A stretch of DNA of 64,000 nucleotides from Blasia pusilla. Taxonomy: Eukaryota. A program made the position numbers and the translations under genes. Under the pieces are notes generated by a model. The model searched no databases and was not told where the DNA came from. It was given only the letters and a program-made list of their open reading frames with translations. How positions within the stretch are numbered: the first letter of the stretch is position 1; each line of letters starts with the position of its first letter. This document shows positions 21,420-64,000 of the stretch, piece by piece. The stretch spans positions 42,966,001-43,030,000 of the forward strand of contig CM114271.1 of NCBI GenBank assembly GCA_050084515.1. The letters are read 5' to 3'.

Positions 21420-22249
21420 CAAAGAGAGAATGAGTGAGTGCGAGAGCTTCATGGGGGAGCTCGCTGGTTGCTCGATGTTTGGTGCAGGTTGGGGAACCAT
21501 TTTCCATGCTTCATGGCTCATGGGAGTGCTCACCGGAGCAAGAGCCGTGCGAGTTTGCTGCTTTGCTTTGCTGTTTTTTTGTACGGCAGAGTGGCACGCG
21601 GAAGCGTTGCCCAATTTTCGATAGGAATTGAGTATGGGGGCGGATTGCTCCATGCCGGTGCTCTTTAGAACACCATGAACCTTGCTGATTTGTGTTCTTA
21701 TAGGTTTTATATTTTTGTTGGGAGAAATCAGCGCGGAAGCGCTGCCAATTTTTGTGTAGGAGAAAGAGGCGTTGGGCTTTATGACAGTCCATGTCAGTTT
21801 TTACTGGAATGTCCGATTCAAATTTGTTTTTGAGACATCGTAGATCATGAAGATTTGCACGTTGTGCAATAGACAATGCGCAATTTGGAGTTGAGAGCAA
21901 AAAGTTATGATCAATCTTGAAAAACTGCCATTGCTAGGGGATTTGTAGGGTTAAATTGTTCAAACCCTAAACCAGCCGCTGTGCCGGCAGTGACTGTCCC
22001 TGTCATAGTATCCCTCAACGATCTACAAATGACGGTCAATTATGACCATCAACGGTCCGCCGTCACCATCAATGGTCAACCGTCATCGTCAACAATCCAC
22101 GGTCCATCATCCACCGTCGGCCGCCGCCGCCTAGCGCTGCTCAGAGCCGCATTTGGCCGTTTTCCACCCTTAGTTTCCATTTCCGACATTACGGAGTGGA
22201 TGGTTTTCCATGACGACCGTTGATTCTCTGACTTGCGCCACCACCACGT

Positions 22250-24258: not shown

Positions 24259-24400
24259 GGTAGGTAGTTCTACATTCCAACTTGTGTTTGTGACATGGAT
24301 GACAAGAAGGCGACTAATGATGAGGCCACATGAGCACCCGACCTTCTTGCTCTTAGCGTTTGAGAGATGGTAGGTAGGGATAGATGGCTATCTGGAGTTA

Positions 24401-25147
<747 letters not shown>

Positions 25148-45570: not shown

Positions 45571-46354
45571 TGTTATGCGCATATACATCGCTACGCACTA
45601 TAATAGTTGTCATCGAACACACACAAAAATATGCATAATCCCATGCTAACTCATGGCATCCAAACAACGAGACAAGAACAACCAAAGATTGGATCTTACT
45701 TTACTCCAATAAAGTAAGATCCAATCTCTCTCTACACCATCTCACACCATAGCTCTCAAAGGTGTGCACTCTCTCTCATGTCAAATCAAACCGACTCTCC
45801 TAATGAAAGGCTTGGGTTACACTCACAAGGCAAGGGACCATAGCTCCGCCGCCTTATGCCAAGAGGTTCAACAAAGAAAGAATGAGTTCTCAAGCTCTCT
45901 CTCCATGAGGCATACCTCTCCCCTCTCCCAAGCTCTCTCCATGGTAACCTATGCTCCCAAGTCACCTCCTTGGCTCTTGACCTGATGTAGGAGGTCAAGG
46001 GCCACTTACCAAAAAATAGAAAATCGATCATATACTTAAAATTGTACTCACCTAAAATAGTAAGTTCCTCAATATGGCTCCAAATGAGCCGAAACGAAGG
46101 GGAAACCTGTTCTCTCAGGTTTCCCGGGGCTTCAGCAGGTCATCCTCGACCTACTGAGCTTGTCCTCTGCTATTCACAAAGGCACTCTACTAGATCTCAC
46201 CGATCTATCCTAAGAGACGTGACAACTATCGTGCGCATACACATCGCTACACAATATATATCGCTGTCACCAAACACACACAAAAACACGCACGATCCCA
46301 TGCTAACTCATGACATCCAAACAACGAGACATGAAGTACCAAAATATCTCCAAT
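45571..46354 (-). repeat. E2 3' split repeats: Y1 46354-46227, 2-nt spacer, X2 46224-45711, Y2 ~45710-45571
   Basis: CCCATGCTAACTCATG.CATCCAAACAACGAGACA occurs in both Y copies. X matches E1 X1. Confidence 0.85.
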
Positions 46355-46533
46355 CGCCCCCCTAGCTGGTGGTTAGGTCTCTCTAACTCCAGATAGCCAT
46401 CTATCCCTACCTACCATGACATACATCTCTCGGATGCTAAGAGCAAGAAGGTCGGGTGCTCATGTGGCCCATCGTTTGTTGTCTTCTTGTCATCCATGTC
46501 ACAAACACAAGTTGGAATGTAGAACTACCTACT

Positions 46534-46690
46534 CTATGTACATCTGGGACACATCCACCATCCCTGAGGAACCTTAGTGAGAGGTGGCATCAAACATGCC
46601 ATATGCCATCCTCTCGAACATCCATCACAAACTAGCATAGTGGCTGCACCACGGGCGGAACCACACAACATACACCGCAAGCCTGCAGAA
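46534..46690 (-). other. PHD finger at the E2 integrase C-terminus
   Basis: C4HC3 pattern: CMLC...CDGC..GWHMAC...WMCPRC. Confidence 0.92.
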
Positions 46691-49600
46691 ACTATTGCTA
46701 AGCTTGGATCAACTGTACCGTCAATGTTTGGAAGATGACATGGCGCATAGTTACGCACATGGTCCTTCCAAACCATACCATCGCGTCCCTCCAATAAGAG
46801 AACATCAGATGGCAAAACCTCACGCACTCTCAAGATGTTGCGCTTTCCAGTCACATCCAACGTCGTGGGTACTGTATGCTGCAAGTAGACATAGTCTCCT
46901 TGATGAAACCTCCGGATAGTAGGTCGATAACCACCTCCCCGAATAGTCGCATACCTCAACGTATCCCGATGTTGCACAATCGCCAAGTTCTCAAACGCCA
47001 TGGGCATCACTCTCCAAAACAACTCAACCCTCTCAGAATATGCTCGTATCCATACATCAGGATCATCAAGGTTCAACACCTTACCACTATCTTGACGAAT
47101 GGCCGCAGGAAATTTTGGCTCATGGCCATAAAGCAACAAGTATGGTGAGAAAGACGCTAAGGATGCCTGCCTGCTGAATCTGTATCCCATCGCCAACCAC
47201 GGCAACTGAAGGTCCCAATCTCCTAGGTGACCTCTCTGCAAGCCATACTTGCGTACTCCTCTCTTCATCGTCTGCACAACCCGCTCCGCTAGTCCATCCG
47301 CCTCAAGATGATCTCGTGAAGTAGTGCGGTGGTTGATCAGTGCCTGATCACACAAGGCCTGAAACTCCCCGCGGAACTCTGTACCCTGGTCTGTCAACAC
47401 CTCAGCTCGCACGCCGTAATGACTCAGCACTCAATCTAGGAAGGCATATGCTACTCCCTCACTCGCTTTGTCAAGCAATGCAACCAACTTTATCCACTTC
47501 AAGAAGTGCTCGACCATTACCAACACATAATGACTATGGCGCTCCGTCAAAGGCAAAGGTCTTGCAAAATCCAGACTCCATCTATAACCGAAACCCATGA
47601 TCGAAAGTGGATGCAACTGTGGAGTTGGAGCATTGAACGATGCTCGAACTCACCATGCATGTGGCAACAAACTGTTGAACGTCAGTCTGCATGCCTTGCC
47701 ACCAATACTGAATCTGGAGCAAGCTATATATCCGCTTCACTCCAAAATGACCCAACTCCTCATGGGCATGACGCACCAAAGGTGCTCTCTGCAAAGGATG
47801 AGGCACTACACGCAGTCTACCATCCTCCCACACTCGCAACACATGTGTGCCCTCCCACCGAAACCGTCTGGCTTGCTGTAGGATCCGATCCCGCTCTCTA
47901 GCATCCACTGTGCTCGCGACCCTGCCAGTACGCACGTACTCCAAGACCACTCTATCGTCATGAATGTCTCGGCCACCTATCGTCTCCTCACCGGCCTTCG
48001 GATCTAAGGACTCTCCATCAGACCTCGCCATCAAAGTCTCAGCAATCTGGCTCTCCATAGCCAACAAGCCCAAATAGGTTGACGCATGCCATCCTGACAC
48101 CAACTCCTCATCACTCTCACCATGCCAACGAGCTCCAGTGGCATCTCGCTGACTCGGGCATGGGTTACGGCTCAAACCATCTGCATCTTGGTTGAGCGTC
48201 CCAGGTCTATGCACCACTTGGAAGTCATACTCCTGCAACAAAAGAGCCCACCTCGCAAGCTTCCGTGTAAGCTTGTCGGACTCCATCAACCACTTAAGTG
48301 GCTGATGATCAATAATGATGGTAAAGGGATTGCCGAATAGATAACATCTAAAATATGCAACAGCCCACACTGTAGCCAAGCACTCACCCTCATACGAGCT
48401 ATAATTTGCCTCTGTAGCATTGTTCGGGCGACTAGCATAACCCACCAGGAACTCTCTACCATCATCATCATGTTGGGTGAGCACCGCTCCAAGCCCCAAC
48501 ATGCTCCAATCTGTGTGCAACTGGAAAGGACGCCCCCTGATCAGTCTCCTCAAGATGGGCGTGGACATCAATTTTTCCTTGAGCAGATGAAATGCTCGCT
48601 CTTGCTCATCCCCCCAGTGCCACTCATGATCCACCTTGGTTAGCAAGGTTAGTGGCTTCGCAATCAAACTGAATCTCTTGACGTACCGCCAATAGAAGTT
48701 TGCCAATCCCATGAATGCACGAACGCGGCTCACATCTGTAGGGCGTGGAATGCGTGAAATAGCCTCTATCTTTGTCTTTTGAACACCAAGGCTACCTAGG
48801 TATATCGTATGACCCAAGTACTCAATCTGGTCGTAGAAGAACTTACACTTGCTTGGATGTAGCTTCAGCCCATGTAACTGCAATCGTCGAAACATCTCCT
48901 CTAGATGTCGCTCATGCTCTTCAACCGTGGCACTAAAGACTACGATGTCATCAATATAATACCTAGCAAAATCCAGACCTACCAAGATCCTATCCATGAC
49001 CCTCTAAAACTCATCCGGGGCATACTTTAACCCAAATAGTAAGAACTGCCATTGGTACAAAAAATCCTTCCCGTGAGGATCGATGCCCAAAATATCGTCT
49101 TTTGCCTGTCCTCCAATCTGATAGGCAGCTGATGGTATCCGGCTCCCAAATCCAATGAACTAAAGACCTTTGCGTGACCAATTGCATCAAAGATCTCCTC
49201 AGGAGTGGGCATGGCATATCTATCAAACTTCATCTACCGATTGATAGGCCGATAATCCCCACACATCCTTCTTGGCAGGCATGACAGGGGCAAATGCATA
49301 CTCCCCATGCGACATCTCCACTAGTCCTGTTCCAACCAAGTCTTGGCTCCTACTCTAAATCACAGCCCTCTCCATATCACTCTATCTGTAGGGTCGTCAG
49401 AAGATCGGCGTATCACTCGACAACTCAATGCGGATCCCTGGTCCTTTCAGAGTACCCAAATCTTCCATGCTAAATGCAAAGCAACTCCTCTAACTCCTAA
49501 GGAACTGATGTATCCGGCGCCGCTCTTCTCCTCTCAACTTAGGGCCCATATATGGCTCCCAAGTCTCCATTGTGACTACGGTAGGACTCTCCAGCACTAG

Positions 49601-49899
49601 TATCGATGGTTGCTATGGTGCAACCTCGTCTCAAACACCAACACTTGGCCGCTCTCCTACAACCAACTGCAAACTCTGATCTCCTCCACACGCAATGCCT
49701 AGAACCACCCTCGATGTTGTGGCTATCATCTCCTGGCGTACCCGCAAAACATCCCAAGAAGTCCAAGGATGTCTCTCCCGATCTCCCCTAGTGTGTCGAT
49801 CTCCTCGGGTCTCGCCCCCAACCACTGCCTCCACCATCTCGGTAGGCATGGGGCTCACCAACGCAACCGATGTGATCTGTCGCGATCTCATCTGACGCT

Positions 49900-50763
49900 G
49901 CTCAGCCACTCCCAAGCTGAAGATCCATGTCAAGCAATTCAAGTCCATCGCCTGACCTAAGACATGGCGTCGTGATGCCTGTGACATTGACCGTACTTCC
50001 GTCACGCCTAAGGGAAATCCATCGCCCGCTCTCTCTCATTGGCGTTGGGCTCCACCAACCTTTGAACCTGGTCATCCCAAACCAAGCCAGGACCGGCCTC
50101 CTTGTATGCATAAGAAGCGGGAAAACTCACAAATGTGGGAAAGGCTACTCGCGGTCGGCCTACCTTATTGACCGTACTCAATGGCGTTCGATCATCGTGC
50201 CTCACTGCCTGTAATCGACGACCTGGATCTAGAATGGAATCCACTAACAAGTGGGAGGGGCGCTCCACTCTTGCATACGCCCTGCGCAACACCTCGTGTG
50301 GTACCATGTTGGTCCACCATAGACGCGGGCGATGTGTTGGAGAAACCACACTCGCTGCATCCAAAACTAATGTTGGGCCTATCCAGGCACGCACATGATG
50401 TGCACTTGTTACCACCTCGAATGGCCCAAGATTGGTACATTCTCCAAAATGTAACCTGGAGAACGAGACTGATGCTCATGCAAATATCTCAAGACCCTCA
50501 ACATCTCCCAAAACAACGTGGATCGAGTGTCAGCGAACCCGATGCCTCGTCCAGCACTCGATTGACCCTGACATGGCCAACGTGCAATGACCAAATCAAT
50601 GGTCCCTACCCGCTCCAAGTCCTGCGCCCTGTGCAACGAAATATCCCTCGGTAGGGAACTCTGGTACCCCTGTGCCGTGGACGTAGACAACAAGTTGGGA
50701 AAACGTAGGTGTAACTGCGCCACATGTCGTTGTGAGATGTGCCTTGCAACATCATCACTCTCC
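49900..50763 (-). pseudogene. C5 cytosine methyltransferase domain (motifs IV-X) inside E2 pol
   Basis: DLVIARWPCQG (IV), YILENV (VI), THRPRLWWTN (VIII), ERERAMDF (IX), RRHVLGQAMD (X). Confidence 0.88.
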
Positions 50764-53731
50764 CCCTAGCGAGCATTTAAAGCAGCAGATACTTGTAGAG
50801 GCCATAAATATTTGTTTTGGTAATTTAGAAATATTATCGTTATAAATTTATTTTCCAAAATTTTAAAAGAGTAATAAAGTTTCATTTATGCCTGACTCCC
50901 CTAAATAGTTTCAATTTCACTCTTCCATAAAAGTTTGAACAAGACCTATTCTTCCGTTTTCATTCGTCTCACCAAAATAATATCCACTAATTAAATCGGT
51001 GTGCGACCTTGAGACGGTGGAGAAGAAAGTAATTAACATATACTTGCATATGACACGAGGATAGTCTAGATGGCCAGGAAATAAACAAAAAGAACTTGTG
51101 GAGGCCATAATTATCCGCTAATTTTAATTAATTAAATCATTTCCTTTTTCTAGTAAAATTCTTTTCATTTCCCAAGATATCAAATTTAAATTAACTTGAT
51201 TATTTTTTTAAATAATCATATTTTTCATTAAAAATTTTATATATCATTTTTATTTCTTAAATCTTAGAAGAGTAATAATATTCCTCTCTTCTAAGCAATT
51301 CCACTCCTCGATTAAAGTTTAAATGATATCCCAATCTCCAAAATAATTCCACCCTTCCATAAAATCTCCTCTTTCTCCATTAGAATCCTTTTTTCCTTCC
51401 CATAAAAATGAACTAAGGGACAAACTTACAAATTTTTTTTCTCATTTTTCTAATTATTCCATTATTTTTTCTTATTATACACCTAATATCAAAGGATCAC
51501 CCATTATATTATAAAATTTTTAAATTAATAATTAATAAAAAAATCCTTTTTCCACCCAAATTCATTCCCTCTAATATGACTTAAGGAAAAAAAATTCAAA
51601 CATGTTACTCTTTTATCTTATTATCTTATTGTTTTGTCGTATTGGGTTGCCCATTATAATAAAGATTATGAAACTTGTCCTTCGTATCTCACCCCTCATA
51701 AACTTATTTCTCCTCTCCCACAATTCATGCATGCACCTCAACTCCCCCCTTTTCTTTCTCTCTTGCATGATCCCATTTCTCTTTCCGAGGAACTTAAGTA
51801 TTGCTAATTGCTTTTTTGCCCTCTAAGTTTTATTCCTTCTTCCTTCTCTCCTAATAATCATCCTCTTAATTTATTTTCACCATTTTGTCTCTTTCCACCA
51901 ACGATATGTTTTGCTTCCATGAGAGAAGATGATAATAATGGCTTTTTGAGCTCTATATTTTGTTATGTTAACTCAAACTCTTTCATATTCTTAATAGTGA
52001 ACATTGGAGGGCTCTCTTTCATTCCCATAGCACATTCATTCTATTCCACCTCATCTTTTCGTATATGTAACAAAAAACTATTTCATTACATGGGATTGTC
52101 TTTCAATGAGAAGAAATCATTACTGAGGCTAAGATTATTTTCATGTTAGTAGTTAAAGTCAAGTATTGAATTCTTACGTCCTACCTTGGATAATGCAATA
52201 TATAGTTGGCCATGAGAAAACACAGAAGTAGGCATTGAGGCACGTACATTCCAACTTTTTGTAGTCTAAGAGTTTGACCTTATGACTTATTCACAACCAT
52301 GGCAAAAGCAAGACGGATAGGGAATTGAAATCTATGTGGATCAAAAGGTAAATTGGAGTCAGACGTTATTTATGGGATATGTGGGATATCTTTTTCCTTC
52401 CCAAGGTTTTAAATTAGTACAACCCAAATATTAAGGTTTTTATTTTAAGAAAATCCCCAAAATTCATGATTTTTAAAGGATTTTTGGAGTCAAAATGAGC
52501 GTGCAGGCTAGCGCCCTTAATTATGTCCGCCCCCCCCTTCCCCACCCTTACCAAAAAACATTTATTCTACATATGGACCCTACATTTCATTTCTACCTCA
52601 TTCTTATCGTTTTCCTAAAAGGGAGAGTTTGTTGTTTGTACCAACTCCCTAGATACTTTAGGTGGAATGCAATTAAAAGAGATATGTATATTTTGTGTGG
52701 ATGAATGTCGTGGTATTGGTGTTTACAAGTGTTTGAGGTGTGGATATTTTGTATCTATGGATTTGATTAGGCACGCTACACACTATTATATTTGATTACA
52801 AACATAATACATTTTTTCGTTATTGACGATCCCTGTTATTTTGAAACGAGTAATATCATATTATTTGGGTATGATTTTTTAAAGGTAATTACTCAATTTT
52901 TTCATATGTATTTTTATTAACATTATCATATGCATTAATCAGAAATAAGGAGTTCACCAAATTTTTGGTCTGTTAGTGAAATAGCATGGAAGATTCTTCA
53001 CATGAGGAAGAAGAAATCAAGAGTCACAACTCAACTCTACCATAGTAGGGAAGAGTAAGAGTAAATGGCAGAAGTTAGGGCGAACTAAGAGGAATGGCCT
53101 TGGGGTTGTGTAAGGCCTAAATTTGACAGGAGTGGAGGTGTTGGTGGGTGAGGTTAAATTTTCATTAGACTTATGTTTCATATAGATACTACATCTAGGG
53201 AAGCCAAGATGGATTTAAGAATTTTGTGAGGAAGTTGGTAGAGATAGCTAAAACTGTTGATGAATCTTTCGATGATGGAGAAAAAATCGTTGGTAGATGA
53301 CCTACTAGGATGTGTTAGCTTGGGGGAGTACATTTTTGCAATGGATTTAGGGAGAGAACAATACAATATGGATTGAATCCAACTTGGATTAGAGACTCGA
53401 CTCCTCAACCCGAATACGATGAAATTGTTCATCGATGGGGATGGAAAGTGGGAACAATGGTTTGCATCCCAAAACGTATTACCTAGCTTGGGGTTAAGTG
53501 AGTTGAAGAGGGAGATGGTTACATGGCATAGGGAGCATGTTGAAATCATTGGTCTAGTTGTTTCCCTTCTTGTTATGAGTACTCCCACTCTTCTATTTCC
53601 CCTTAGGAATGTTGGAAGTCTCCTGAAGATGTTGAAGAGGATGGATTTAATAATCACTACTAGAGTTTGGTTAGACAATCCTCACTTTGACCAATATAAG
53701 GTGTTCATGATGAGAACGGTTGACAATGCCT

Positions 53732-54314
53732 TGTCGTGCGAATCCACATCGTCATACAACATACATCGCTGACATACCATACTCACATACATACATAACA
53801 TAGACGAGAGTATCCACAAACATAAGTGTACCACAACTGAAATTCGTGAAAGACCTATTGTCATAAAACACGTATAGAATCACATACAATCGAGCCAAAC
53901 CCACTCCACGATGGGAGAATCTAGGTCGAAGCTTGCGGGAAACACCATAGCCAAGAGCTCTACTGACTACCAAGACTAACTCCCAACGCAACAGGCTCAA
54001 CACAAAGAACTGACTGTTCTTTGGGTGCACTCCACACTATATCCTCCAACCTAAGAGCGGGCCCTATTGGGAAAGTCACCCCCAACTCAGTAACCCCCAA
54101 CCCTATGTATGAAACCGCATCTCTACCTAGCCACTACGATCCTACATAAGGTATGGCCTCTACTAGCACACTATACTCTACGACATAATCCGTATGGTCA
54201 TGATAGTTGTCGTGCGAATCCGCATCGTCATACAACATACATCGCTGACATACCATACTCACATACATACATAACATAGACGAGAGCATCCACAAACATA
54301 AGTGTACCACAACT
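53732..54314 (-). repeat. E3 3' split repeats: Y1 54314-54208, 2-nt spacer, X2 54205-53839, Y2 53838-53732
   Basis: Y1 and Y2 (~107 bp) differ at 2 positions by eye. X2 matches 63072-63437. PPT-like TAGGGGGCG lies immediately upstream of Y1. Confidence 0.92.
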
Positions 54315-54486: not shown

Positions 54487-57250
54487 TAAGTACATCGAGG
54501 ACAAACCCACCTTCCAATAGGAACAACATCCAAACGTGGAGTCAAACACATCATGTGCCAACCCCTAGAACACCGATCACACACCAACATACGGGTGCGT
54601 TACAGTGAGACCCACACAACATGCACCTCAAGCTAGCACGTATCATGGCTAAGCTTGGGTCAAGATACCATCCACATTTGAAGATGACATGGCGCACAAT
54701 TACGCACATGGTCCTTCCAAACAACTCCATCACGACCCTCCAACATGAGAACTCCGAAGCTAACACCTCACGCACTTCGTAAAATAGTGCGCCTGCCGTC
54801 ACATCCAACGTTGTCGGGCATGCTACAAATAGACATAGTCCCCACATGGAACCTACGAATCGATGGTCGATAACCTCCACCCGAATGGTTGCATACCGCA
54901 ACGTATCCCCTGTGTTGAGCAATGGCAAGATTCTCAAAGGTCGTTGGCATAACTCTCCGAAAGAGCTCCGCCCGCTGAGAACACACCCTCATCCACATCT
55001 CGGGTCATCAAGGTTCACCACCTCACTAGACTCGACAATTCTTTGCTAGCAAGTCCGGATCTCGGCCGTATAATGTAAAATAAGGTGAGAAGGAAGCCAA
55101 GGATGCTTGGCGATCGAACCTATACCCCATGGCTAACCATGGCAATTGAATATCCGGTCTCCAAGATGCCCTTCAGAGGCCATACTTGCGCAATGCCCTC
55201 TTCACCGCCCGAACCACACGCTCAGCCAAACCATCGCTCTGGATGATCTCGAGGCGTGGTCCGATGATCAATCAACGCCTTGTCACACAAGACTGAAACT
55301 CACCCCTGAAACTCTCTAGTGGGTCACAAGACTTCACGGTGGTGCACCAAAATGACTAAGCACTCTATCAAGAAACGCGACGCCGTTCCTCACTTGCCTT
55401 GTCGTAATCCCACCAACTCAATCCACTTGGAGAAGTGCTCCACCATCACCAACACATATCCATGATGTCAAATACCACGGTAACGGTCCCGCAAAGTCCA
55501 CACTCCAACGGTAACCCAACCCCATAATAGGCAAGGGGTGTAACTGTGGTGTAGGGGCATTGAATGATGCCCTCACCCAGTCACAAACCATATAACGTGA
55601 CACCAACTGCTGCACCTGAGTATGCATGCCATGCCACCAATACTGACCAAGGAGTAAGCTATACGTATGCTTTACCCCAAAATGTCCCAACTCCTCATGG
55701 GCATGTCACACAATGCGCTCTCTCTGAGCCAAATGCGGCACTACTCGTACTCTACCATCCTCCCACACACAGAGAATATGTGTTGCCTCCAATCGATACC
55801 TCTTAGCATGTTGAAGAACACGGTCTCGCTCCTTGGCACTCACTATGCCTGGCACCCTACTGGTCCGTAGGAACTCCAACACCAATGCATCATCATGAAT
55901 ATCACGATGATCTGTACCTCCATCTCCAACCTTACGATCTGAAGGCTGGCCATCTACCCTCAGACTAGAGTAAGATGTCATGTGGTCCTCCATACTAGAA
56001 TCCACCCCTAACCAACATAAAAAGGCGGATGTATGCCAACGTGGCACCATCTCCTCATCAACCTCGCCATGCCATCTAGCCCCAGTTGCATCCTCTTGGC
56101 TAGTATATGGGTTCCTACTCAACCCATCAGCATCAAGGTTGGCAACTCCAGGTCTATGTACCACCTGGAAGTCATACTCCTGTAAGATAAGAACCCACCG
56201 TGCAAGCTTCCATGTAAGCTTGTCAGACTCCATCAACCACTTGAGCGGCTGGTGATCAGTAACAAGGGTAAAATGTGTGCCAAACAAGTAACACCTAAAG
56301 TGTGCCACAACCCACACTACTGCCAAGCACTCTCCCTCATATGAACTATAGCGCGACTCCGCTGCATTATTCAAACGACTTGCATAGGCCACCACAAACT
56401 CCATGTGCTCATCATCATGTTGTGTCAACACCGCTCCAAGTCCCAACCTACTCCAATCAGTGTGTAACTAAAATGGGCGCCCTCTGATAGGTCTCCTCAA
56501 GATAGGCGCCGCCACCAACTGGGCCTTAAGCTCCACAAAAGCTCTCTCCTGATCATCTTCCCAGTGCCACTCTTGATCTGATTTCAGAAATTGGTTCAAA
56601 GGCTTTGCCATAGCACTAAATCCCTTCATATACCTCCGATAGTAGTTTGCCAATCCCATGAATGCCCGAACTCTACTCACATCTACCGGACGCGGAATAA
56701 GTGCAATAGCCTCCACCTTTGCTTGCTGAACTCCCAAAGCACTTGGATAGATCAAATGACCCAATTACTCAACATCCTCATGGAAGAACTTACACTTTCT
56801 TGGATTCAAACGTAGACCATGAGCTTTCAACCGCTCAAACACAATCTGCAAATGTATCTGATGCTCCTCCACCGTGTTAGTGAATACCAAGATATCATCA
56901 ATGTAACACCGAACAAAATCCAACCCTCCTAGGATCCTGTCCATCACTCTCTGAAACTCGGCAGGTGCATTCTTCAACCCAAAGGGTAAGAATTTCCACT
57001 GGTACAAACAATCCTTGCCATGAGAGTTGACACCCCAAAATCTTTGTCTTGGCCTTGTCACTCTCCGAATCGGCAATTGATGGTATCTGCCGAAGATCCA
57101 AAGTACTGAAAATCTTTGCTGTCCCACCACATCAAAGATCTCTCAGTGTAGGCATGGCATACCTATCGGCCTTGGTTTGCCGATTGATAGACGGTAATCT
57201 CCACACATCCGCCTATCCGTGTAGTTGCCATGCATATCCTTTTTAGCATG
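54487..57250 (-). pseudogene. E3 RT, RNase H, integrase and PHD finger (frameshifted)
   Basis: FLPFGLKNAPAEFQRVMD, CYIDDILVF, TDHQPLKW, NLDADGLSR, GHFGVK, WSVDFAGP, LRCMLCGS...CDRCSRGWH...CPRCT*. Confidence 0.92.
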
Positions 57251-57819
57251 ACAAAGTGGGCGATGCATACTCTCCATGCGAGAACTCCACTAATCCAGCC
57301 TCCAAAAGGTCCAACGCCCTACTCAATCAGGTCCTCTCCATATCACTATATCGGTAGGGACGACGGAAGATTGGCGTATCACTAGCCAAATCAATCCGTA
57401 TACCGGGTCCAACCAGAGAACCCAACTCCTTCATGCTAAAGGCAAAACAACTCCTATAAGCACGTAGGAATTTTATCAGCGTCGTTTCTCACCTCCCGTA
57501 AGCTTGGGCCCAAGTAATGGCTCCCAAGTCTCCTCCTTTGGCACACTAGAGGAGAGGACGATGCCATTGGTCGCTCACATAACCCCCTCACAAGATGGTA
57601 TACCCTTAGCTACACCATCATCGAGCAAATAACTCCTCCACCAAAGATGAGCAACCAACTTCACATGCCCAACCATTACATCCCATTTACTCCAAGGATG
57701 CAAAATACTACTCTCTTCGCCCCCAGCCGATGCCTCTACCGTCCCGGTAGCCATCGAGCTCATCACAAGGGGTGGAAGAGCCACACACATAGTCCGAAGT
57801 CGATGCGTTGCTCGGCCAT

Positions 57820-58790
57820 ACCAAGACTCAAAATCCAAGTCAAACAATTCAGGTCCATGGCTTGACCCAACACATGACGTCGTGAAGCCTCAGAAATAGA
57901 AGCAATCGCTGTCACGCCAATAGTAAATCCCATCGCACGCTCTCTCTCATCAACGTTAGGCTCCACCAACTGTCGCACATGAGAATCCCATACAAGCCCC
58001 GGACCACTTTCCCTGTAGGCATGTGACGCGGGAAAACTCACAAATGTGGGTAGTGCCATCCTAGGCTCGCCCACACGGTTCACCACTGCCATGGGTGACC
58101 GATCAATAACCCTCACCATTTGAGAAAGTCGCCCAAAGATTCAAGATACTATCCTTTGTAAGGCGAGGATCATTTGCACTTTGCATCATATGCTCGACGT
58201 AGAACCTCCCTAGGCAACAAGTTTGTCCACCACAAGCGTGGACGATGTGCACGCGAGTCAACTCGCGGTGCATCCAACAACACCGCTGGTCCAATCCAAG
58301 AGCGCACCTCATGAACACTCGCCATCATCCGGGTCTGAGTGTCACCCAACAATGGAACATTCTCCAGAATGTAAGCTAGAGCACGTGCCTGATGAACCTG
58401 AAGATGTCGTAACACCCGTAACATCTCCCAAAACAATCGAGACCTAGGGTCATGTAATCCCTCACCACGACCACCACGTGTATGAACCTCACATGGCCAT
58501 CCAGCAATCACCAAATCCACAGGACCAACCCTCTCAAGGTCCTGCGCCCCCAACAATGCAATGTGTGATGGTAAAGCATGCAGGTACCCACAAATAGCTG
58601 ATGGCGGCAACAACTCAGGATATCTCTGCATCAACTGACCAATATGTCGGGATGAGACTCTCTGGGCTGTCTCATCTCGCTCCACATACACGTATCTCCG
58701 CACAGGAATACCGGCCTGCAACATTGCCGCCAAACCAGTGCTAATCCCACCAAAGAGATCTAACACACAAATGCCCTCCGGCGGATACTG
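57820..58790 (-). pseudogene. Complete DNMT3-like C5 cytosine methyltransferase domain inside E3 pol
   Basis: Motifs in canonical order: I VLDLFGGISTG, II YVERD, IV GPVDLVIAGWPC, VI YILENV, VIII AHRPRLWWTNL, IX ERERAMGF, X RRHVLGQAMD. Frameshifts near 58110-58180. Confidence 0.93.
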
Positions 58791-59439
58791 CCATACAATG
58801 GGTGTAGTATCCAAAGGGGATAACCCAACTGGGCCAGAAGTAGGAGTCCGCCGTGGGGCCTCCTCTTCCTCATGAGGTATAATGACCTCACACCAAGCCT
58901 CTGCACTAGGCGATCGCCTCTGCCGTAGTGCACCGCCTCTGAACTCCAAAGTGGCACATCCAACGATGAGGATGCCTTTGCTGCAAAAAAAATAGGGACC
59001 TCCTCTACCTCCTCATGCGCAGGAGAATCCATAGCGAAACATTACCCTCCAAAAAGTCTCTGGCCAAGTGACTACTCCACTAAAACCAGCCACAGATGCT
59101 AACATCTTTGGGGAGACCCTCTGGTCGAGCCCCATAAATAAATCTCACAGAACTTGGCTCATACGTCCATCCCGGACTGCCAACCAGGTCTATAAGACGC
59201 TCTCTCGGTCCACTAATCCATCTGAAACCCATCGGGTACAATCGCTCCTCCAACTAGTACATCATACGACTGGCCGATGTGACTACGTGATACTCCCAAC
59301 CGGGAGCTATCGTCGCATGATCTGGTCTCAACTGTCATGAAAACTTCTCCCGTGTCATGAATTCAGACCTATCATTGGCTCCTCCAAGTGATGTTTGAAT
59401 CTGGAATGGGCAAGGCTCAAGCTCTGACCTCCGAATACC

Positions 59440-59520
59440 CAAACCAATACATGCCGCCTTTCCCAACATCAAAGGTCGGGCACCGAGTCTAACAAGACTC
59501 TATCTGGTCTATACACACAT
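59440..59520 (-). pseudogene. E3 aspartic protease active-site region
   Basis: PDRVLLDS(G) motif with a frameshift, lying between gag and the MTase. Confidence 0.6.
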
Positions 59521-60099
59521 CTGTAGGACTCACCAATCGGAATATCCCACTCCGGTTGTCCAACATACATACACCAGGTGTAAGCCTCTCACGATCAATG
59601 GTGGCCGGGATGGTAATGCATCCACCTTCGCTGGCCGCCTCGCTAAGTAGCACCGGTACTCAATGCTACTCTTGACATAGAGGGTCGCTCCACCGCAATA
59701 TCCTCATCCACCTCAACACGTAGCAAGAACTCCCCACGTTCACACAATGTGGTCGCTAGCTGAAATACTGAGGAGCTAAGTCAACTCCTAAAGCCATCGC
59801 CCTCGTGGCCGAAAACAATGGGGATCCCAACACTTTGAAGTTGCCATCCGCACATCTTTCGATCCGCATCCGTGTCTACTACACGCGATGTAGATGCCTC
59901 GATCCACCATCGCTCACTCAATAGGTGCGTAGGAACCATGGATGGAGTCCTAAGCACCTCGGACAACAAGAATGATGGGAAGCCTAGCTCGCCTCCCACC
60001 TCACCCCTTTGTGGGTCCAACTCACAAGAGCACCACGTGGCTCGACGCTCGAGTGGCTCCTCTCAGAATCGCTGATGCCTCAACTCGTGCTACACTTGC

Positions 60100-61577
60100 C
60101 ATATAAGAGAGATCATCCCTCCATAAGAGGTGGAAGCCCTTGCTCCCGAACCTGATCTATCCGGATACCACCATAGTAGCCAACTCTCTGCTCCAACTGC
60201 TCAATCTGGCGACCATAGCGACTCTGTCGTAGTGGTAGGGGTAGCCACCGTAGGCTCTCCAACCACTGGTCCACCCCTACCACCTCTACCACCTCGGCCT
60301 CTGAGCTACTCCACCACGGCCACGGCCTGATCTCAACTCGGATGAAGATCAAAGCAACGCTCTCGAGGATAACCTAGTCTCCCCGCAATGATCACACTGA
60401 GTTGGGGCCGACGAGGCCCATCCTCCAAAGTCCATCTCCCATCCTCTTGGGGACAAAACTTCCTAACATGATCACCTCCACATGTCCAACATGATCGTCC
60501 CTTCTGGGGGCAGCAAATGAAGGCAATGGTCTCTGCACAAATGTCCCTCTAGGACTTGACGAGGTCGCGTGTACCCCACGACTCCCACTACTACTACCAC
60601 CACCACTACTACTACGAGGCGTGAGGTGGGCGGTGAACACGAGAAGTAGTAGTTGTATCCCCTCTTGAATGCGAATGTCACCACTCTCTCCTTCACCATG
60701 TTAAGCTCAATCTTCTCAGATAGAGCAAACACATGGGTCAATGTGGGTGAATCATCACTCATAAGAGTAGCATCACGCACCCTACGGCGCAAATCTCTGT
60801 CCAAGATCCCATACCAAAATCGATCGCTGATCCTCAGTCACACACCTGGGTGACTGAAATCAGCCGTCGATACGCGTGTATGCCTCACGAAGACTCTCAC
60901 CAGTCTTTCGCTCAAAGTCCTGAAGATTCCTCAACTTCTCCGTCTTCACTCCTTGATAGTTCTTCTTCAACCTCTTGAAGAACTCTGAACCGAAGCTAAA
61001 CGATGGTGGGGCACTAGTACCTCCACCTTTGGTACCCCACTCCGGCTGCACTCGTACCACTCAACGTCAAATTTGGCCGGGCATAGTAGGAGCACTACTA
61101 CCAATACCACCATGGGTGATAGACACATAGCCTGGAGACCAATATTGTCTCCATGCCTCAATCTCAACAACATGGTCCTTCCTAAACTCATGGTAATCAT
61201 CCATGGGTGGTCCTTCCAAGTCTTTGAAACAACCCTTCCAAGCCAAGAAGGGTGTAAACAACGTGGCGTTCCGCAACATCTGCATATCATACCACGTATC
61301 AAACCTGCATGAAGTCCTCCAACTCAATGGTACCCATCGCACCGAGTATCATCGTGGGCCCTTCATGGCCCCATATCCACCGTCCATGTCCCAAATCAAT
61401 GGAGCGCAACACTCGATAACAACCTAGAAGACTCGGTGTTTGGAACACCTCGCCCTCCTCTTCATCAACCGTCGGAAGTGGAAAAGGTAGCTGATACCTA
61501 AATCCACTCCGTGTGAAACCACCAGTGTCCGCACCACGGTCCCCAACCAGACCACCCGACAGCTCCGTGATGACCAA
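60100..61577 (-). pseudogene. E3 gag
   Basis: EFFKRLKKNYQGVKTEKLRNLQDFERKTGESLREAYTR is typical of retrotransposon capsid. Fragmented. Confidence 0.7.
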
Positions 61578-63071
61578 CGCCGATGCCGCACCACCACAAA
61601 ATTACCAAGTCACGTCGATGTCGTTGTACTATTCTAGCTCTACTAGCTATGGGTGTAGGCAACCTAACTTGTCATCACCACAAGAAGTCTCCCACAATCT
61701 ACTCGTCATCCCTCCAGCCTCACTACCGGTAGCACACAGGAGTAACACTACTCTGGAAATCAGCGTCAACCCTAATAATGGGCGCGCAAGCAAGAGGCAC
61801 GATGGAGGGGATCCAAACACAGGAAATCCAACGACAACCCTCCAATCGCAAATGGAAATCAAGGTAACACAATCCACCAAACGTGGTGCCCTCTGAATCC
61901 ACAAAACCCACCACACAATTCTAACGCAATAGCTACTTTGGGTCGATGATGACGTGCTAGTAACGCAAAGACTGAAAATATCACCTGCATGGAGAGGCTA
62001 CACCGTACTATGCGCTAGAGGTACATCAACCAAAAACCTGAGATGCATAAAGCGCCTAACACATCTCCGAACAAAGACCAAATGAGCTACAATGATGCAG
62101 CACCTGACACGGCATAGTTAAGAACTCGGCGATTAAGCCCCTCTAGGCAGAATAGCCCAAAGATGGGTGACCAGTTATGCAAAACTCAAATCCCAAATCC
62201 TGCAAAAATTGCCTCACGCCCAAGCTTGCTTGCTTGCTCCTTGCTCCTTACTCCTTACTCCGCCTCTCACGCCCACTCGCCCCGAACTACCACGAGTTGC
62301 CTCGAAGCCTCAAAATGCTCGAGACATGCCCCTATCGCCCTGTTCGCCATGCTTCGCTATGGAGAGAGGTCCAACCAGGGCGCCCCCAACGGGATAGGCG
62401 TCTCCAAAAATGAACGAGTCACCAACCAACCAGCCCCTCCGATCCGCTGTCCACCATAGCCAGACCTTGAGCTAGTCCGCGAAATTTCGATCAGAAATTA
62501 CTTCACAAATACGTGACCAAAATCAAATCTGTTTCGATCAAAATTCAATTGACCACCATAGCTATCTCCCCACAAAAACTCAACTACAACCGAGCTCCGT
62601 ACTCCGAGCTAAAAATCAGACAAACTTGCTGTCCATACACCTCTAGAACCGCAAATCCGACAGCGCTTCCGCCAAGTTTCATGCACGCAGAAATCCGCAA
62701 CGCTCCACGCACTCGAGCAGATGGCTTCACATGAGATCACAATACAAGTAGCAATAGGAACCTCTCACCCAATCTGGATGAACTTCAACAGAGCTTCCGC
62801 ACTCCAAGCTCTCCACATCAGAAAACTGTCGAACACGACCAGAATCTTCAATGCTTGATAACTTCCAACTCCCTTGACGAAATCCGGCGATCTACAACGC
62901 GTTGGAAAGCTCTCAGCAAGGCGCTTCTTTCCCAGCCAACCGCACACCAGATTCACACCTCCAAAATAGGCCACAAGCCACGAACATCCACGGCTGAGTA
63001 CACAATCAGCCCTAACCAGATCCTACTGATCTACAATCGAAGCTACCATCGATCTACTCCAGTTCTTTGAG

Positions 63072-63437
63072 TGAAATCCGTGAAAGACCTACTATCATAA
63101 AACACGTTTACAATCACATACAATCGAGCCAAACCCACTCCACGATGGGAGAATCTAGGTCGAAGCTTGCGGGAAACACCATAGCCAAGAGCTCTACTCA
63201 CTACCAAGGCTAACTCCCAACGCAACAGGCTCAACTCACAAAGAATCGATTGTTCTTTGAGGGCAAGCCACCTTATATCCTCCAACCTAAGAGCGGGCCC
63301 CACTGGGAAAGTCACCCCAAGTGAGTAACCCCAACCCTATGTATGGAACCGCATCTCTACCAAGCCACTACGGTCCTACATAAGGAATGGCCTCTACCAG
63401 CACTATACTCTACGACATAATCCGTATGGTCATGACA
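63072..63437 (-). repeat. E3 5' terminal repeat X1
   Basis: Homologous to 53839-54205 and starts TGTCATGACC. No Y on either side. Confidence 0.9.
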
Positions 63438-63689
63438 CATATTCTTCCTCGTGTACAAGCGTAAAATAGTTTGTAGGGATTTTATAGTTAGGAATTTTGG
63501 GGTCCGATGTTACGAAGAAGTGATCGCCTCGGCACTTCCATTTGTGATACCTGTCGTGAGAGAATGGAGAGTGTACATCATAATTTTGTATTGAAAAAGG
63601 AGAACTTATTAGAGAGTTCACCTTGCATCGGCCGCATCTACCGCAGCTAGAAGGCCCGCCCTTGTTCGAAGAAAGACTCTCGACACGAC

Positions 63690-64000
63690 AACGCGAGTTG
63701 GCTTGCGTGCACATCGTCCACGCTTGTGGTGGACAAACTTGTTGCCTAGGGAGGTTCTACGTCGAGCATATGATGCAGTGCAGCGGGATCCTTGCCTTAC
63801 AGTGGATAGTATCTTGGATATTGGGCGACTTTCTCAAGTGGTGAGGGTTATTGATCGGTCATCCATGGCAGTGGTGAACCGTGTGGGCCAGCCTAGGATG
63901 GCACTACCCACATTTGTGAGTTTTCCCTCGTCACATGCCTACAGGGAAGGTGGTCTCGGGCTTGTATGGGATTCTCATGTGCGACTGTTGGTGGAGCCTC
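63690..64000 (+). pseudogene. Third retrotransposon MTase copy (family B-like), motif VIII onward, running off the window end
   Basis: RAHRPRLWWTNLLPREVLRRAYDAVQRDP...RMALPTFVSFPSSHAYREGG, close to the reverse complement of ~57960-58265. Confidence 0.9.

What the first reader, a model, noticed from the sequence alone, without database searches (positions are those of the whole stretch)
57820..58790. Gypsy retrotransposon carrying its own DNMT3-like cytosine methyltransferase between protease and RT
Seen: a full C5-MTase motif set (I VLDLFGGISTG, II VERD, IV GWPC with catalytic Cys, VI ENV, VIII HRPRLWWTN, IX ERERAMGF, X LGQAMD) on the pol strand, in the order gag-PR-MTase-RT-RH-IN-PHD. Known: motif wording resembles DNMT3 (VLSLFDGIATG, DLVIGGSPC, AHRARYFWGN, EMERVFGF). 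From memory, DNMT-bearing retrotransposons were reported in dinoflagellates and charophyte algae (de Mendoza et al. 2018; please verify); I do not recall them as a described feature of land-plant genomes. Inference: the MTase is released from the polyprotein, packaged in the particle, and methylates the element's cDNA or insertion site (self-silencing or host mimicry).
Basis: partly seen in the sequence, partly recalled or inferred. Interest (0 to 1): 0.92.

Follow-up and report, generated by a model that had tools for sequence, protein, structure and literature searches.

The report
Bryophyte retrotransposon carrying its own DNMT3
A decayed jumping gene in a moss-or-liverwort-type plant genome carries its own DNA cytosine methyltransferase. 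This kind of element has been described in an alga, but I found no report of it in land plants.

Summary
On the minus strand at 57,805-58,790 there is a complete C5 cytosine-methyltransferase motif set, inside a 9.7-kb Gypsy-type retroelement (63,437 to 53,732). The order is gag-PR-MTase-RT-RH-IN.

**Copies in the window.** This copy is dead, with frameshifts and in-frame stops. A second family, about 60% identical in protein, has the MTase in the same place at 45,571-50,765. A third fragment lies at 63,613-63,999.

**What the domain is.** It is DNMT3-like by sequence (DNMT3A, E 2e-12) and by fold (TM 0.74-0.81). It is under purifying selection (dN/dS about 0.12 between the two families). The catalytic Cys is kept in 103 of 104 diverged relatives and the ENV Glu in 106 of 106.

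**Relatives.** Named relatives come from Marchantia polymorpha (15 proteins), Calypogeia, Sphagnum, Closterium and chlorophytes, plus many metagenome contigs.

- In this clade a single in-frame stop (UAG-CAR-YYA in 3 of 3 intact or near-intact loci) separates gag-PR-MTase from RT-RH-IN-PHD. The MTase would therefore be made at Gag level.
- The terminal repeats follow the split pattern A-internal-B-A-B.
- A sister lineage has the order RT-RH-MTase-IN.

**Verdict.** The kind is known (KnitGypsy-Dnmt3, de Mendoza 2018). Its presence in land plants was not found in print. What the MTase does remains untested.

The parts
63072..63437 (-). 5' terminal repeat A1 of element A. It begins TGTCATGACC at 63437.
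   Evidence: 93.1% identical to A2 over 362 aligned bases. Start located.
61388..63071 (-). Untranslated leader between A1 and gag
   Evidence: Homology to residue 1 of Marchantia P0003 starts at 61387.
59977..61387 (-). gag, with a CCHC zinc knuckle at about 60339-60506 (decayed)
   Evidence: tblastn with P0003 residues 1-474, 37-55% identity. CWTCGGDHVRKFC is in ORF 60333-60548. Pfam finds nothing in these pieces.
59086..59614 (-). Aspartic protease region (decayed)
   Evidence: tblastn with P0003 residues 594-777, 46-70% identity. The matching region of relatives hits Pfam Asp_protease_2.
57805..58790 (-). DNMT3-like C5 cytosine methyltransferase domain, motifs I to X. Broken by frame changes near 58140-58182 and at about 57805.
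   Evidence: Pfam PF00145 6.2e-07. PDB phmmer best hit DNMT3A, 2.1e-12. tblastn with P0003 58-73% identity.
57575..57577 (-). In-frame TGA between the MTase tail and RT, at the place where ORF1 ends in relatives
   Evidence: Same frame as RT. By projecting the alignment and P0003's length of 1278 residues, the end of Marchantia P0003 falls within about 2 codons of it (my arithmetic). L001, L002 and L003 have TAG at the matching place.
56765..57530 (-). Reverse transcriptase
   Evidence: Pfam RVT_1 6e-24 on ORF 56765-57142. Homology to Sphagnum P0024 runs up to about 57479.
55706..56764 (-). RNase H region, interrupted by in-frame stops at 56468 and 55706
   Evidence: Pfam RT_RNaseH 1.9e-33 and RT_RNaseH_2 3.3e-20.
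54551..55705 (-). Integrase: H2C2 zinc domain, DDE core, and a decayed remnant of the C-terminal PHD finger
   Evidence: Integrase_H2C2 2.9e-10. Core matches P0024 at 55164-55580. Only CMLCGS remains of the PHD. No Pfam hit.
54207..54314 (-). Repeat B1, followed by 2-3 bases and then A2
   Evidence: 98.1% identical to B2. Sequence read.
53838..54203 (-). Repeat A2
53732..53838 (-). Repeat B2. The element ends ...CGCACGACA at 53732.
45571..50765 (-). Element B, a second family, truncated at its 5' end inside the MTase. MTase 49742-50765; in-frame TGA 49631-49633; RT-RH 47774-49197; IN-PHD 46534-47770; B1 46232-46343; A2 45687-46231; B2 45571-45686.
   Evidence: tblastn 47-78% identity to element A's pieces. 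Pfam DNA_methylase 2.4e-10 and PHD 2.8e-10. Repeats.
63613..63999 (+). Fragment C: C-terminal half of an MTase of element A's family, on the opposite strand. Open for 129 codons and cut by the window end.
   Evidence: 87-93% protein identity to A. 93.9% DNA identity over 310 bases.
20900..25147 (+). Element D: an internally deleted copy of element B's family, with no MTase left. A1 is at about 20900-21419, the integrase end at 22257-24406, A2 at 24711-25019 and B2 at 25020-25147. It has TG...CA ends flanked by AGAA on both sides.

Best explanation
**What it is (shown).** The finding is the methyltransferase domain of a dead copy of an autonomous Ty3/Gypsy-type retroelement. The family carries a DNMT3-type C5 cytosine methyltransferase as a fixed, selected part of its polyprotein. 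The order is gag-protease-MTase-(in-frame stop)-RT-RNase H-integrase-PHD. The host is a bryophyte.

**Family history (shown).** The family is old. Two families about 60% identical in protein lie side by side in the window. Relatives occur in liverworts, mosses, Closterium, chlorophytes and many environmental contigs. The catalytic residues are conserved throughout.

**How it works (inferred).** In this clade the MTase is translated with Gag and protease as ORF1. RT-RH-IN-PHD is made only by leaky readthrough of a UAG-CAR-YYA stop. My odds that this readthrough happens in the intact relatives are about 60%. If so, the MTase is produced and packaged at Gag level.

**Most likely role (inferred, about 35%).** The MTase methylates the element's own newly made double-stranded cDNA de novo, in the particle or pre-integration complex. 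The copy would then arrive already carrying the host's repeat-type methylation. The PHD finger on the integrase would help choose the chromatin in which it lands.
For: **Identity**
- Pfam DNA_methylase matches on A (6.2e-07) and on B (2.4e-10).
- In the PDB sequence search with the window's own ORF, 29 of 46 hits are DNMT3A/B/C, best 2.1e-12. Six are DRM (best 5.3e-06) and 11 are bacterial HaeIII or HhaI (best 1.2e-04).
- An AlphaFold model of relative P0021 (pLDDT 78.6) was searched with Foldseek. Every row listed, ranks 1-50, is DNMT3A/B/C, with target-normalised TM 0.41-0.81 (0.74-0.81 against chains of the catalytic domain alone).

**Not a one-off capture**
- The window holds three MTase-bearing copies of two families.
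- The first protein search gave 31 hits: 15 M. polymorpha, 2 Calypogeia fissa, 2 Sphagnum, 2 Closterium and 10 unnamed.
- The representative search gave 2325 proteins at E<=1e-3.
- 231,026 of 10.5 million contigs of DNA run X1 lie on the element at 90% identity or more.

**In frame with pol**
- P0300 is a single 2327-aa ORF: CCHC, protease, MTase, RVT, RNase H, integrase.
- L001 and L003 each have ORF1 (protease, MTase) and ORF2 (RT-RH-IN-PHD, 1047 aa) in one frame, separated by one TAG.

**Selection**
- A against B gives MTase dN/dS 0.12 over 275 codons (pN 0.23, pS 0.72). RT-RH-IN gives 0.17 over 563 codons.
- Among 106 relatives thinned so that no two kept domains are 70% or more identical, the catalytic Cys is kept in 103/104. 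The ENV Glu is kept in 106/106 and the Asn in 100/106. The motif I Gly is kept in 105/106, and the motif VIII arginines in 102/105 and 103/104.

**Readthrough**
- TAG CAG TTA (L001, L002) and TAG CAA TCA (L003) fit UAG-CAR-YYA. The motif itself is from Firth 2011, PMC3159437, passages read.
- A and B have an in-frame TGA at the matching place.
- At least 17 relatives of this architecture end 87-178 residues after the MTase.

**Host**
- A Tic20 gene at 34996-35805 has its best named matches in liverworts and mosses.
Against: **No activity data**
- The only tested relative of this kind, the K. nitens domain, gave no methylation in yeast. The authors called this inconclusive because human DNMT3B also failed.

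**The window's own copies are dead**
- They say nothing about present activity.
- A against C shows 10 non-synonymous and 1 synonymous difference over 88 codons. This fits neutral decay.

**The readthrough reading is weak for the window itself**
- In A and B the stop is TGA followed by GCG or GAC. That fits no known readthrough motif and could be a decay mutation.
- Several other relatives with the same domain order have no stop there (P0300, P0173, P0320, P0028).
- L001, L002 and L003 are 69-87% identical to the query, so they are not independent.

**Self-methylation leaves no visible trace here**
- CpG observed/expected in elements A and B (0.71 and 0.68) is no lower than the window as a whole (0.63).

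**The selection estimate is rough**
- Synonymous sites are saturated, so dN/dS of 0.12 is approximate.

**DNMT3 placement is indirect**
- It rests on PDB sequence and fold ranking. No cellular DNMT3, DRM or K. nitens sequences could be put in a tree.
- The language-model atlas returned only generic phage and bacterial DNA_methylase clusters.
Confidence: 0.75

Rival explanations
1. The MTase is active but works on chromatin, not on the cDNA. As part of the intasome or as a free product, it methylates the insertion site and its surroundings or other genomic DNA in trans. Alternatively it helps tether the complex to chromatin together with the integrase PHD finger.
For: A chromatin reader (PHD) is always found at the integrase C-terminus in this lineage: B, P0166, P0189 and P0209, L001 and L003. 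The catalytic residues are conserved. De Mendoza 2018 raises effects on the chromatin of the insertion site.
Against: In this clade the MTase lies in ORF1, apart from integrase and PHD. That argues against a fixed physical coupling with the integrase. No methylome data were available.
Confidence: 0.2
2. The domain is kept for a non-catalytic job, such as nucleic-acid binding, particle assembly or a spacer in the polyprotein. It no longer methylates DNA.
For: The K. nitens domain showed no activity in yeast. In the sister architecture the Pro of the Pro-Cys motif is often Glu (GWECQ).
Against: The catalytic Cys (103/104), ENV Glu (106/106), SAM-binding Gly (105/106) and motif VIII arginines are kept across relatives less than 70% identical. 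A purely structural role would not require this.
Confidence: 0.1
3. The enzyme methylates RNA (m5C on the genomic RNA or a primer tRNA) rather than DNA.
For: De Mendoza 2018 raises RNA methylation for the LINE-borne DNMT. Placement in ORF1 next to Gag would put it close to the packaged RNA.
Against: The best sequence and fold matches are DNMT3 DNA enzymes. No Dnmt2-type tRNA enzyme appears among the hits listed.
Confidence: 0.05
4. The MTase is a piece of a host DNMT3 gene, or a nested insertion caught once in this copy. It would then be an accident of this locus or of annotation.
For: Only that copy A is broken and that Marchantia gene models of such elements are partly spliced predictions (P0012, P0024).
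Against: The position is the same in two families of the window. It is the same in unspliced metagenome ORFs and loci. Relatives run into the thousands. MTase and RT-RH trees agree on the split between the two architectures.
Confidence: 0.01

Closest known systems
KnitGypsy-Dnmt3 of Klebsormidium nitens (de Mendoza et al. 2018, Nat Commun 9:1341, PMC5890265)
   Same: Both have a non-rearranged DNMT3-type domain inside the coding region of a Gypsy-type element of a streptophyte. Both have repeats arranged as in DIRS elements (A-coding-B-A-B). Both show purifying selection on the DNMT: Ka/Ks < 0.2 there, about 0.12 here. In both, function is unproven.
   Different: The host here is a land plant (bryophyte), and the relatives named are liverworts and mosses. 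Here the MTase lies between protease and RT, in this clade upstream of an in-frame stop. The domain order of the K. nitens element is shown only in a figure and supplements that I could not see, and no K. nitens sequence could be compared. Direct kinship is therefore likely but untested.
SymbioDIRS-Dnmt3 and SymbioLINE-Dnmt of Symbiodinium (same paper)
   Same: They are retroelements with a C5-MTase in the polyprotein. SymbioDIRS has the same A/B repeat layout and a DNMT3-type domain, which was shown to methylate CG de novo in yeast.
   Different: They are DIRS elements (tyrosine recombinase) or LINE elements in dinoflagellates. The element here has a DDE integrase, a Gypsy-type pol and TG...CA ends.
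Cellular DNMT3A/3B/3C (animals) and plant DNMT3/DRM
   Same: These are the best sequence and fold matches. The motif order is I to X, as in DNMT3 and unlike the permuted DRM.
   Different: There are no PWWP or ADD reader domains. About 25% identity. There is a longer region between motifs VIII and IX with its own conserved PTLV...S.AFR block. It is embedded in a retroelement polyprotein.
Gammaretrovirus and tobamovirus type stop-codon readthrough (UAG-CAR-YYA; Firth et al. 2011, PMC3159437)
   Same: A single in-frame UAG separates an abundant upstream product from the polymerase. The six bases after it fit the plant-virus consensus in L001, L002 and L003.
   Different: The stop lies after protease and MTase, not after Gag. 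Readthrough has not been measured. The window's own copies have TGA in a context that fits no motif.

Membership tests
C5 cytosine DNA methyltransferase (Pfam PF00145) | Motifs I (FxGxG), IV (PC), VI (ENV), VIII (RxR), IX and X in this order, and a profile score above the cut-off | tested here: met
   All motifs were read. Pfam scores are 29.6 bits (A) and 40.8 bits (B) against a cut-off of 22.
DNMT3 clade | Closer to DNMT3 than to DNMT1, CMT, DRM or bacterial enzymes | tested here: met
   By sequence, DNMT3A scores 2.1e-12, DRM 5.3e-06 and HaeIII 1.2e-04. By fold, all rows listed to rank 50 are DNMT3A/B/C. This is a ranking against solved structures only.
DNMT3 clade | Placement inside DNMT3 in a tree with cellular DNMT1, DNMT3, DNMT5 and DRM references | not tested
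   No cellular reference sequences could be obtained. The 150 best representatives were all of the retroelement type.
DNMT3 clade | N-terminal chromatin readers (PWWP, ADD) joined to the catalytic domain | tested here: not met
   Pfam finds no PWWP or ADD in A, B, P0003, P0300, L001 or L003. The neighbours are protease and RT. A PHD finger sits on the integrase instead.
Ty3/Gypsy (Metaviridae-type) retroelement | Pol order PR-RT-RNase H-IN, with RVT_1, RT_RNaseH, Integrase_H2C2 and rve | tested here: met
Ty3/Gypsy (Metaviridae-type) retroelement | Two identical long terminal repeats at the ends, TG...CA termini and a short target duplication | tested here: inconclusive
   The termini are TG...CA. 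The repeats are split: A1-internal-B1-A2-B2 in A, B1-A2-B2 in B, and A1...A2-B2 in D. D is flanked by AGAA on both sides. A has no matching flanks. PBS and PPT were not examined.
KnitGypsy-Dnmt3 family | DNMT3-type domain within the polyprotein of a Gypsy element of a streptophyte, with the DIRS-like repeat layout and purifying selection | tested here: met
   set against the description in PMC5890265.
KnitGypsy-Dnmt3 family | Sequence kinship with the K. nitens copies and the same domain order | not testable with these tools
   No K. nitens element sequence appeared among named hits. The figure and supplements are not held.
DIRS retroelements | Tyrosine recombinase instead of a DDE integrase | tested here: not met
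   rve and Integrase_H2C2 are present. No Phage_integrase hit was found.

The most novel reading that the evidence does not exclude
Land plants (liverworts and mosses, including the transformable model Marchantia polymorpha) harbour a large, old family of retroelements. These make a DNMT3-type de novo methyltransferase in Gag-level amounts, from ORF1 upstream of a leaky UAG. They use it to methylate their own cDNA before integration. This would be a retroelement that installs its own epigenetic mark. The family spans chlorophytes to bryophytes, changed its domain order once, and was not seen in vascular plants.
Probability: 0.25. Interest if true: 0.8.

Novelty: new member of a known kind. Interest (0 to 1): 0.58.

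Why it matters
Nobody knows what retroelement-borne DNA methyltransferases do. The known hosts, Symbiodinium and Klebsormidium, are hard to manipulate, and the Gypsy-borne enzyme has never been shown to be active.

If the same kind of element is common in bryophytes, the question becomes testable. At least 15 annotated proteins of Marchantia polymorpha belong to it, some with uninterrupted gag-PR-MTase frames. Marchantia has genetics, methylomes and mutants of the host methylation enzymes.

There is also a practical warning. DNMT3-like genes counted in bryophyte genomes may partly be retroelement genes. UniRef names two of these proteins 'DNA (cytosine-5-)-methyltransferase'.

Two further features give concrete handles on how the element expresses and replicates itself. 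One is the placement of the MTase before a probable readthrough stop. The other is the split terminal repeats combined with a DDE integrase.

Tried and rejected
- **Whole genome of the window:** none is held. Copy number, intact copies and insertion ages in the host could not be measured.
- **Earlier notes of this scan:** there were none for this genome or for this sequence.
- **Language-model atlas:** it returned only generic phage and bacterial DNA_methylase clusters at 0.94-0.95. That was no help for classification.
- **Cluster look-up of 10 distant representatives:** only one carried an organism name that fits the family (Closterium sp. NIES-53). One 151-aa member of P0181's cluster is labelled a betaproteobacterial MAG, which I take to be a mis-binned fragment. 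The rest were unnamed metagenome proteins.
- **Naming K. nitens relatives:** none appeared among the named hits. Both searches depend on shared words and on length windows, so this shows nothing.
- **Vascular plants:** none appeared among the 31 hits or the 57 hits. This is a lead, not proof of absence.
- **CpG depletion as a trace of self-methylation:** elements A and B (0.71, 0.68) do not differ from the window (0.63). Uninformative.
- **Substitution spectrum A1/A2 and A/C:** there is no clear excess of CG transitions. Uninformative.
- **Sequencing runs:** no RNA holder is listed.
- **Laying three runs guessed to be RNA (X15, X18, X20):** 28-101 short contigs covered most of the element, including the MTase, at 90-99% identity. 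The RNA label is only a guess, so I draw no conclusion on expression.
- **Joints 54313 to 63072:** they are most simply contigs of the A-B junction of other copies, mapped onto A1 and B1. They do not show circles.
- **Terminal repeats on metagenome contigs L001 and L003:** none were found. This is expected if the assemblies stop at repeats.
- **Literature:** 9 full-text searches found no report of DNMT-bearing retroelements in bryophytes. I also searched term passages in PMC12344493, bioRxiv 10.64898/2026.05.21.726589, PMC11982613, PMC6453930, PMC5784723 and PMC11244446. Six Marchantia gene identifiers occur in no paper of the library.
- **Sources I could not read:** Iyer, Abhiman and Aravind 2011, which de Mendoza cites for DNMTs linked to RT domains, is not in the library. 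Either may bear on the novelty claim.
Full report
**1. The observation**

VLDLFGGISTG, VERD, GWPC, ENV and HRPRLWWTN are in ORF 58170-59012. ERERAMGF and LGQAMD are in ORF 57763-58140. Pfam DNA_methylase matches at 6.2e-07, 29.6 bits against a cut-off of 22.

Downstream on the same strand are RVT_1 (6e-24), RT_RNaseH (1.9e-33) and Integrase_H2C2 (2.9e-10). Upstream, gag with a CCHC knuckle and the protease region are collinear with the Marchantia protein P0003 from its first residue, at window 61387.

The copy is dead:
- The MTase is split over three frames.
- RT-RH-IN has at least four in-frame stops.
- Five of the 31 most conserved MTase positions covered by the fragment are changed.
It is intact in the neighbouring element B (2.8e-10).

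**2. What lies around it**

Element A runs from 63,437 to 53,732 on the minus strand. The window holds further members:
- Element B (45,571-50,765, minus strand) has MTase-RT-RH-IN-PHD in the same order. It is 47-78% identical in protein and is truncated at its 5' end inside the MTase.
- Fragment C (63,613-63,999, plus strand) is the C-terminal half of an MTase. It is 87-93% identical to A and runs off the window.
- Element D (20,900-25,147, plus strand) is an internally deleted copy of B's family with no MTase left.

The window also holds host genes. There is a single-exon Tic20 gene at 34,996-35,805 and an ATG4 exon (Peptidase_C54, 1.2e-19) at 13,617-14,045. Other mobile elements are also present.

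The best named matches of Tic20 are liverworts (Marchantia paleacea 75%, Riccia fluitans 85% over 61% of the query, Calypogeia fissa 67%) and mosses (Ceratodon, Physcomitrium). Lycophytes, ferns, seed plants and algae are well behind. The host is therefore a bryophyte. I could not narrow it further, and no genome is held for the window.

**3. What the domain is**

*By sequence.* The window's own ORF finds 46 solved-structure sequences. Of these, 29 are DNMT3A/B/C (best 2.1e-12), 6 are DRM (best 5.3e-06) and 11 are HaeIII or HhaI (best 1.2e-04). The Marchantia relative P0003 gives the same ranking.

*By fold.* An AlphaFold model of relative P0021 was built from a 39-row alignment. Its mean pLDDT is 78.6, and above 90 through most of the domain. 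Every Foldseek row listed to rank 50 is DNMT3A/B/C, with target-normalised TM 0.41-0.81 (0.74-0.81 against chains of the catalytic domain alone).

The motif order is I to X, as in DNMT3 and unlike the permuted DRM. There is no PWWP or ADD domain. I could not place the domain in a tree with cellular enzymes, because none could be obtained.

**4. It is an integral, selected part of the element**

Between families A and B the MTase has pN 0.23 and pS 0.72, giving dN/dS about 0.12 over 275 codons. RT-RH-IN gives 0.17 over 563 codons. Synonymous sites are saturated, so these ratios are rough. Even so, the MTase is at least as constrained as the polymerase.

The young pair A and C shows 10 non-synonymous and 1 synonymous difference over 88 codons. 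That is what decay after insertion gives.

In 106 relatives, thinned so that no two kept domains are 70% or more identical, the key residues are kept:

| Residue | Kept |
|---|---|
| Catalytic Cys | 103 of 104 |
| ENV Glu | 106 of 106 |
| ENV Asn | 100 of 106 |
| Motif I Gly | 105 of 106 |
| Motif VIII Arg (first) | 102 of 105 |
| Motif VIII Arg (second) | 103 of 104 |

This speaks for retained catalysis.

**5. Relatives**

The first protein search gave 31 hits: 15 from Marchantia polymorpha, 2 from Calypogeia fissa, 2 from Sphagnum, 2 from Closterium and 10 unnamed. The HMMER search of 1.84 billion representatives gave 2325 proteins at E<=1e-3 and 516 at E<=1e-10. Of the 48 listed representatives of 900 residues or more, 36 also carry Gypsy RT or RNase H.

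A profile search added Cymbomonas tetramitiformis and Chlamydomonas eustigma. No vascular plant appeared in either named list. That is only a lead.

DNA run X1 lays 231,026 of its 10.5 million contigs on element A at 90% identity or more. The family is therefore abundant and diverse in at least one organism.

**6. Two architectures, one switch**

Among 143 near-complete MTase domains there are two orders:

| Order | Count |
|---|---|
| gag-PR-MTase-RT-RH-IN (T1), RT seen downstream of the MTase | 13 |
| Protease seen upstream of the MTase, taken as T1 | 38 |
| RT-RH-MTase-IN-PHD (T2), RT or RH seen upstream of the MTase | 58 |
| Integrase seen soon after the MTase, taken as T2 | 7 |
| Undecided | 27 |

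On the MTase tree (107 rows, quick IQ-TREE search) all 52 T2 rows fall in one clade with SH-aLRT 97. That clade also holds 14 undecided rows and P0176. My rule labelled P0176 T1 because of a short RNase H hit, but its integrase follows the MTase as in T2.

The RT-RH tree (47 rows) separates 6 T1 from 41 T2 by one branch, support 99. The domain and the polymerase have therefore travelled together, and the order changed once. The trees are unrooted, so which order came first is open.

The window's MTase sits in a 5-row clade (support 100) with M. polymorpha P0011 and P0025, Sphagnum fallax P0024 and the metagenome protein P0008. That clade lies inside a 14-row T1 clade (support 98).

**7. The stop between MTase and RT**

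Metagenome loci L001 and L003 are intact. ORF1 (protease, DNA_methylase) and ORF2 (RVT_1, RNase H, integrase, PHD; 1047 residues in both) lie in the same frame and are separated by a single TAG.

The next six bases are CAG TTA in L001 and in the partly decayed L002, and CAA TCA in L003. All three fit UAG-CAR-YYA, the consensus for efficient readthrough in plant viruses (Firth 2011, PMC3159437, passages read). The loci are 69-87% identical to the query, so they are not independent. The motif does survive two synonymous-type changes.

At least 17 T1 proteins end 87-178 residues after the MTase. In the window, A and B each have an in-frame TGA at the matching place, 14 and 22 codons before the conserved ETWEP block. 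By projecting the alignment and its 1278-residue length, the end of Marchantia P0003 falls within about two codons of A's TGA (my arithmetic). TGA followed by GCG or GAC fits no known motif, and these copies are decayed.

Other T1 clades have one uninterrupted ORF (P0300, 2327 residues).

My reading is that in the clade holding the window's element, the MTase belongs to the abundant Gag-protease product. RT-RH-IN-PHD is made by readthrough. I give this about 60% for the intact relatives. It has not been measured.

**8. Terminal repeats**

Element A has this layout:
- A1 (63,437-63,072)
- the internal part
- B1 (54,314-54,207)
- two or three bases
- A2 (54,203-53,838)
- B2 (53,838-53,732)

Element B shows B1-A2-B2, and D shows A1...A2-B2. 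In neither A nor D is A1 preceded by a B copy.

The outer ends are TG (start of A1) and CA (end of B2) in A and D, and CA in B. D is flanked by AGAA on both sides. A has no matching flanks. Its A1/A2 pair is also more diverged (6.9%) than B1/B2 (1.9%), so its two ends may come from different copies.

The internal B1-NN-A2 stretch is thus a copy of the element's 3' end joined to its 5' end. De Mendoza 2018 describes this layout for SymbioDIRS ('A-coding region-B-A...'). The paper also says the K. nitens Gypsy element has the same repeat structure as a DIRS element.

How such an element replicates with a DDE integrase is unexplained. I note the layout as support for kinship with the K. nitens family and as an open question.

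**9. Comparison with what is known, and novelty**

The kind is known. KnitGypsy-Dnmt3 is a DNMT3-type domain inside a Gypsy polyprotein of a streptophyte alga, with Ka/Ks below 0.2 and unproven activity. Later papers cite only this case for streptophytes.

I found no report for bryophytes or any land plant in 9 full-text searches and in the papers looked into. Six Marchantia gene identifiers occur in no paper of the library. Iyer et al. 2011 and the supplements of de Mendoza 2018 could not be read and may bear on this.

I therefore file the finding as a new member of a known kind. It comes with three new details that need confirmation: the stop before RT, the single switch of domain order, and the reach from chlorophytes to bryophytes.

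**10. Mechanism**

*Shown:* domain identity, position, conservation of catalytic residues, purifying selection, and co-divergence with RT.

*Inferred:* expression with Gag, packaging, and de novo methylation of the element's cDNA. The last is the published hypothesis, and I give it about 35%.

*Rivals:* action on chromatin at or near the insertion site (about 20%), a non-catalytic role (about 10%), and RNA methylation (about 5%). A one-off capture or annotation artefact is excluded.

**11. Verdict**

Interest is moderate to high, mainly because Marchantia would make the open question of what these enzymes do experimentally accessible.

Noticed in passing
window 53732-54314 and 63072-63437; 45571-46343; 20900-21419 and 24711-25147: The terminal repeats are split: A1-internal-B1-NN-A2-B2, with TG...CA outer ends. 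The internal B1-NN-A2 stretch is a copy of the element's 3' end joined to its 5' end. This layout is typical of DIRS or Ngaro elements, yet the element has a DDE integrase. How it replicates is unexplained.
   Followed up: partly
L001 5083-5091; L003 4661-4669; L002 2081-2089; window 57575-57577 and 49631-49633: A single in-frame stop separates gag-PR-MTase from RT-RH-IN-PHD. In the three metagenome loci it is TAG followed by CAG TTA or CAA TCA, which fits the UAG-CAR-YYA readthrough consensus. In the window's decayed copies it is TGA in a context that fits no motif.
   Followed up: partly
proteins P0166, P0189, P0209 and 50 or more others: A sister lineage has the MTase between RNase H and integrase (RT-RH-MTase-IN-PHD). 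It is known mostly from metagenome contigs, with named members from Chlamydomonas eustigma and Cymbomonas. Many of them have GWECQ instead of the Pro-Cys motif. P0209 also has a G-patch domain between MTase and integrase.
   Followed up: partly
window 20900-25147 (+), with 19877-20707 and 25449-26198 (-): Element D seems to be inserted into a LINE-like element. The LINE's RT-bearing ORF pieces lie on either side of it on the minus strand (RVT_1 7.1e-06 for 25449-26198). D is flanked by AGAA on both sides.
   Followed up: partly
window 24401-24707 and 44629-44797: There are long microsatellites. One is a GT/CA-rich array with an 8-base period inside element D, where its B1 repeat would be expected. 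The other is a perfect GA/TC-type array of about 170 bases.
   Followed up: no
window 41258-43553 (-): A LINE element with endonuclease (Exo_endo_phos 3.3e-06) and reverse transcriptase (RVT_1 1e-23).
   Followed up: partly
window 2029-4584 (-): A Helitron-like remnant in an AT-rich stretch: PIF1-like helicase (5.2e-13) and Helitron_like_N (5.2e-04, below the cut-off).
   Followed up: partly
window 34996-35805 (-) and 12330-14045 (+): Host genes sit between the repeats: a single-exon Tic20-type chloroplast import gene, and exons of an ATG4 cysteine protease (Peptidase_C54 1.2e-19).
   Followed up: partly
window 63436-63688: About 250 bases between the 5' end of element A and fragment C match nothing I looked at. 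Fragment C's homology to A starts abruptly at 63689, so C is truncated there.
   Followed up: no
proteins P0006, P0007, P0025: Public databases name some of these retroelement proteins 'DNA (cytosine-5-)-methyltransferase'. Counts of DNMT genes in bryophyte genomes may therefore include retroelement copies.
   Followed up: no
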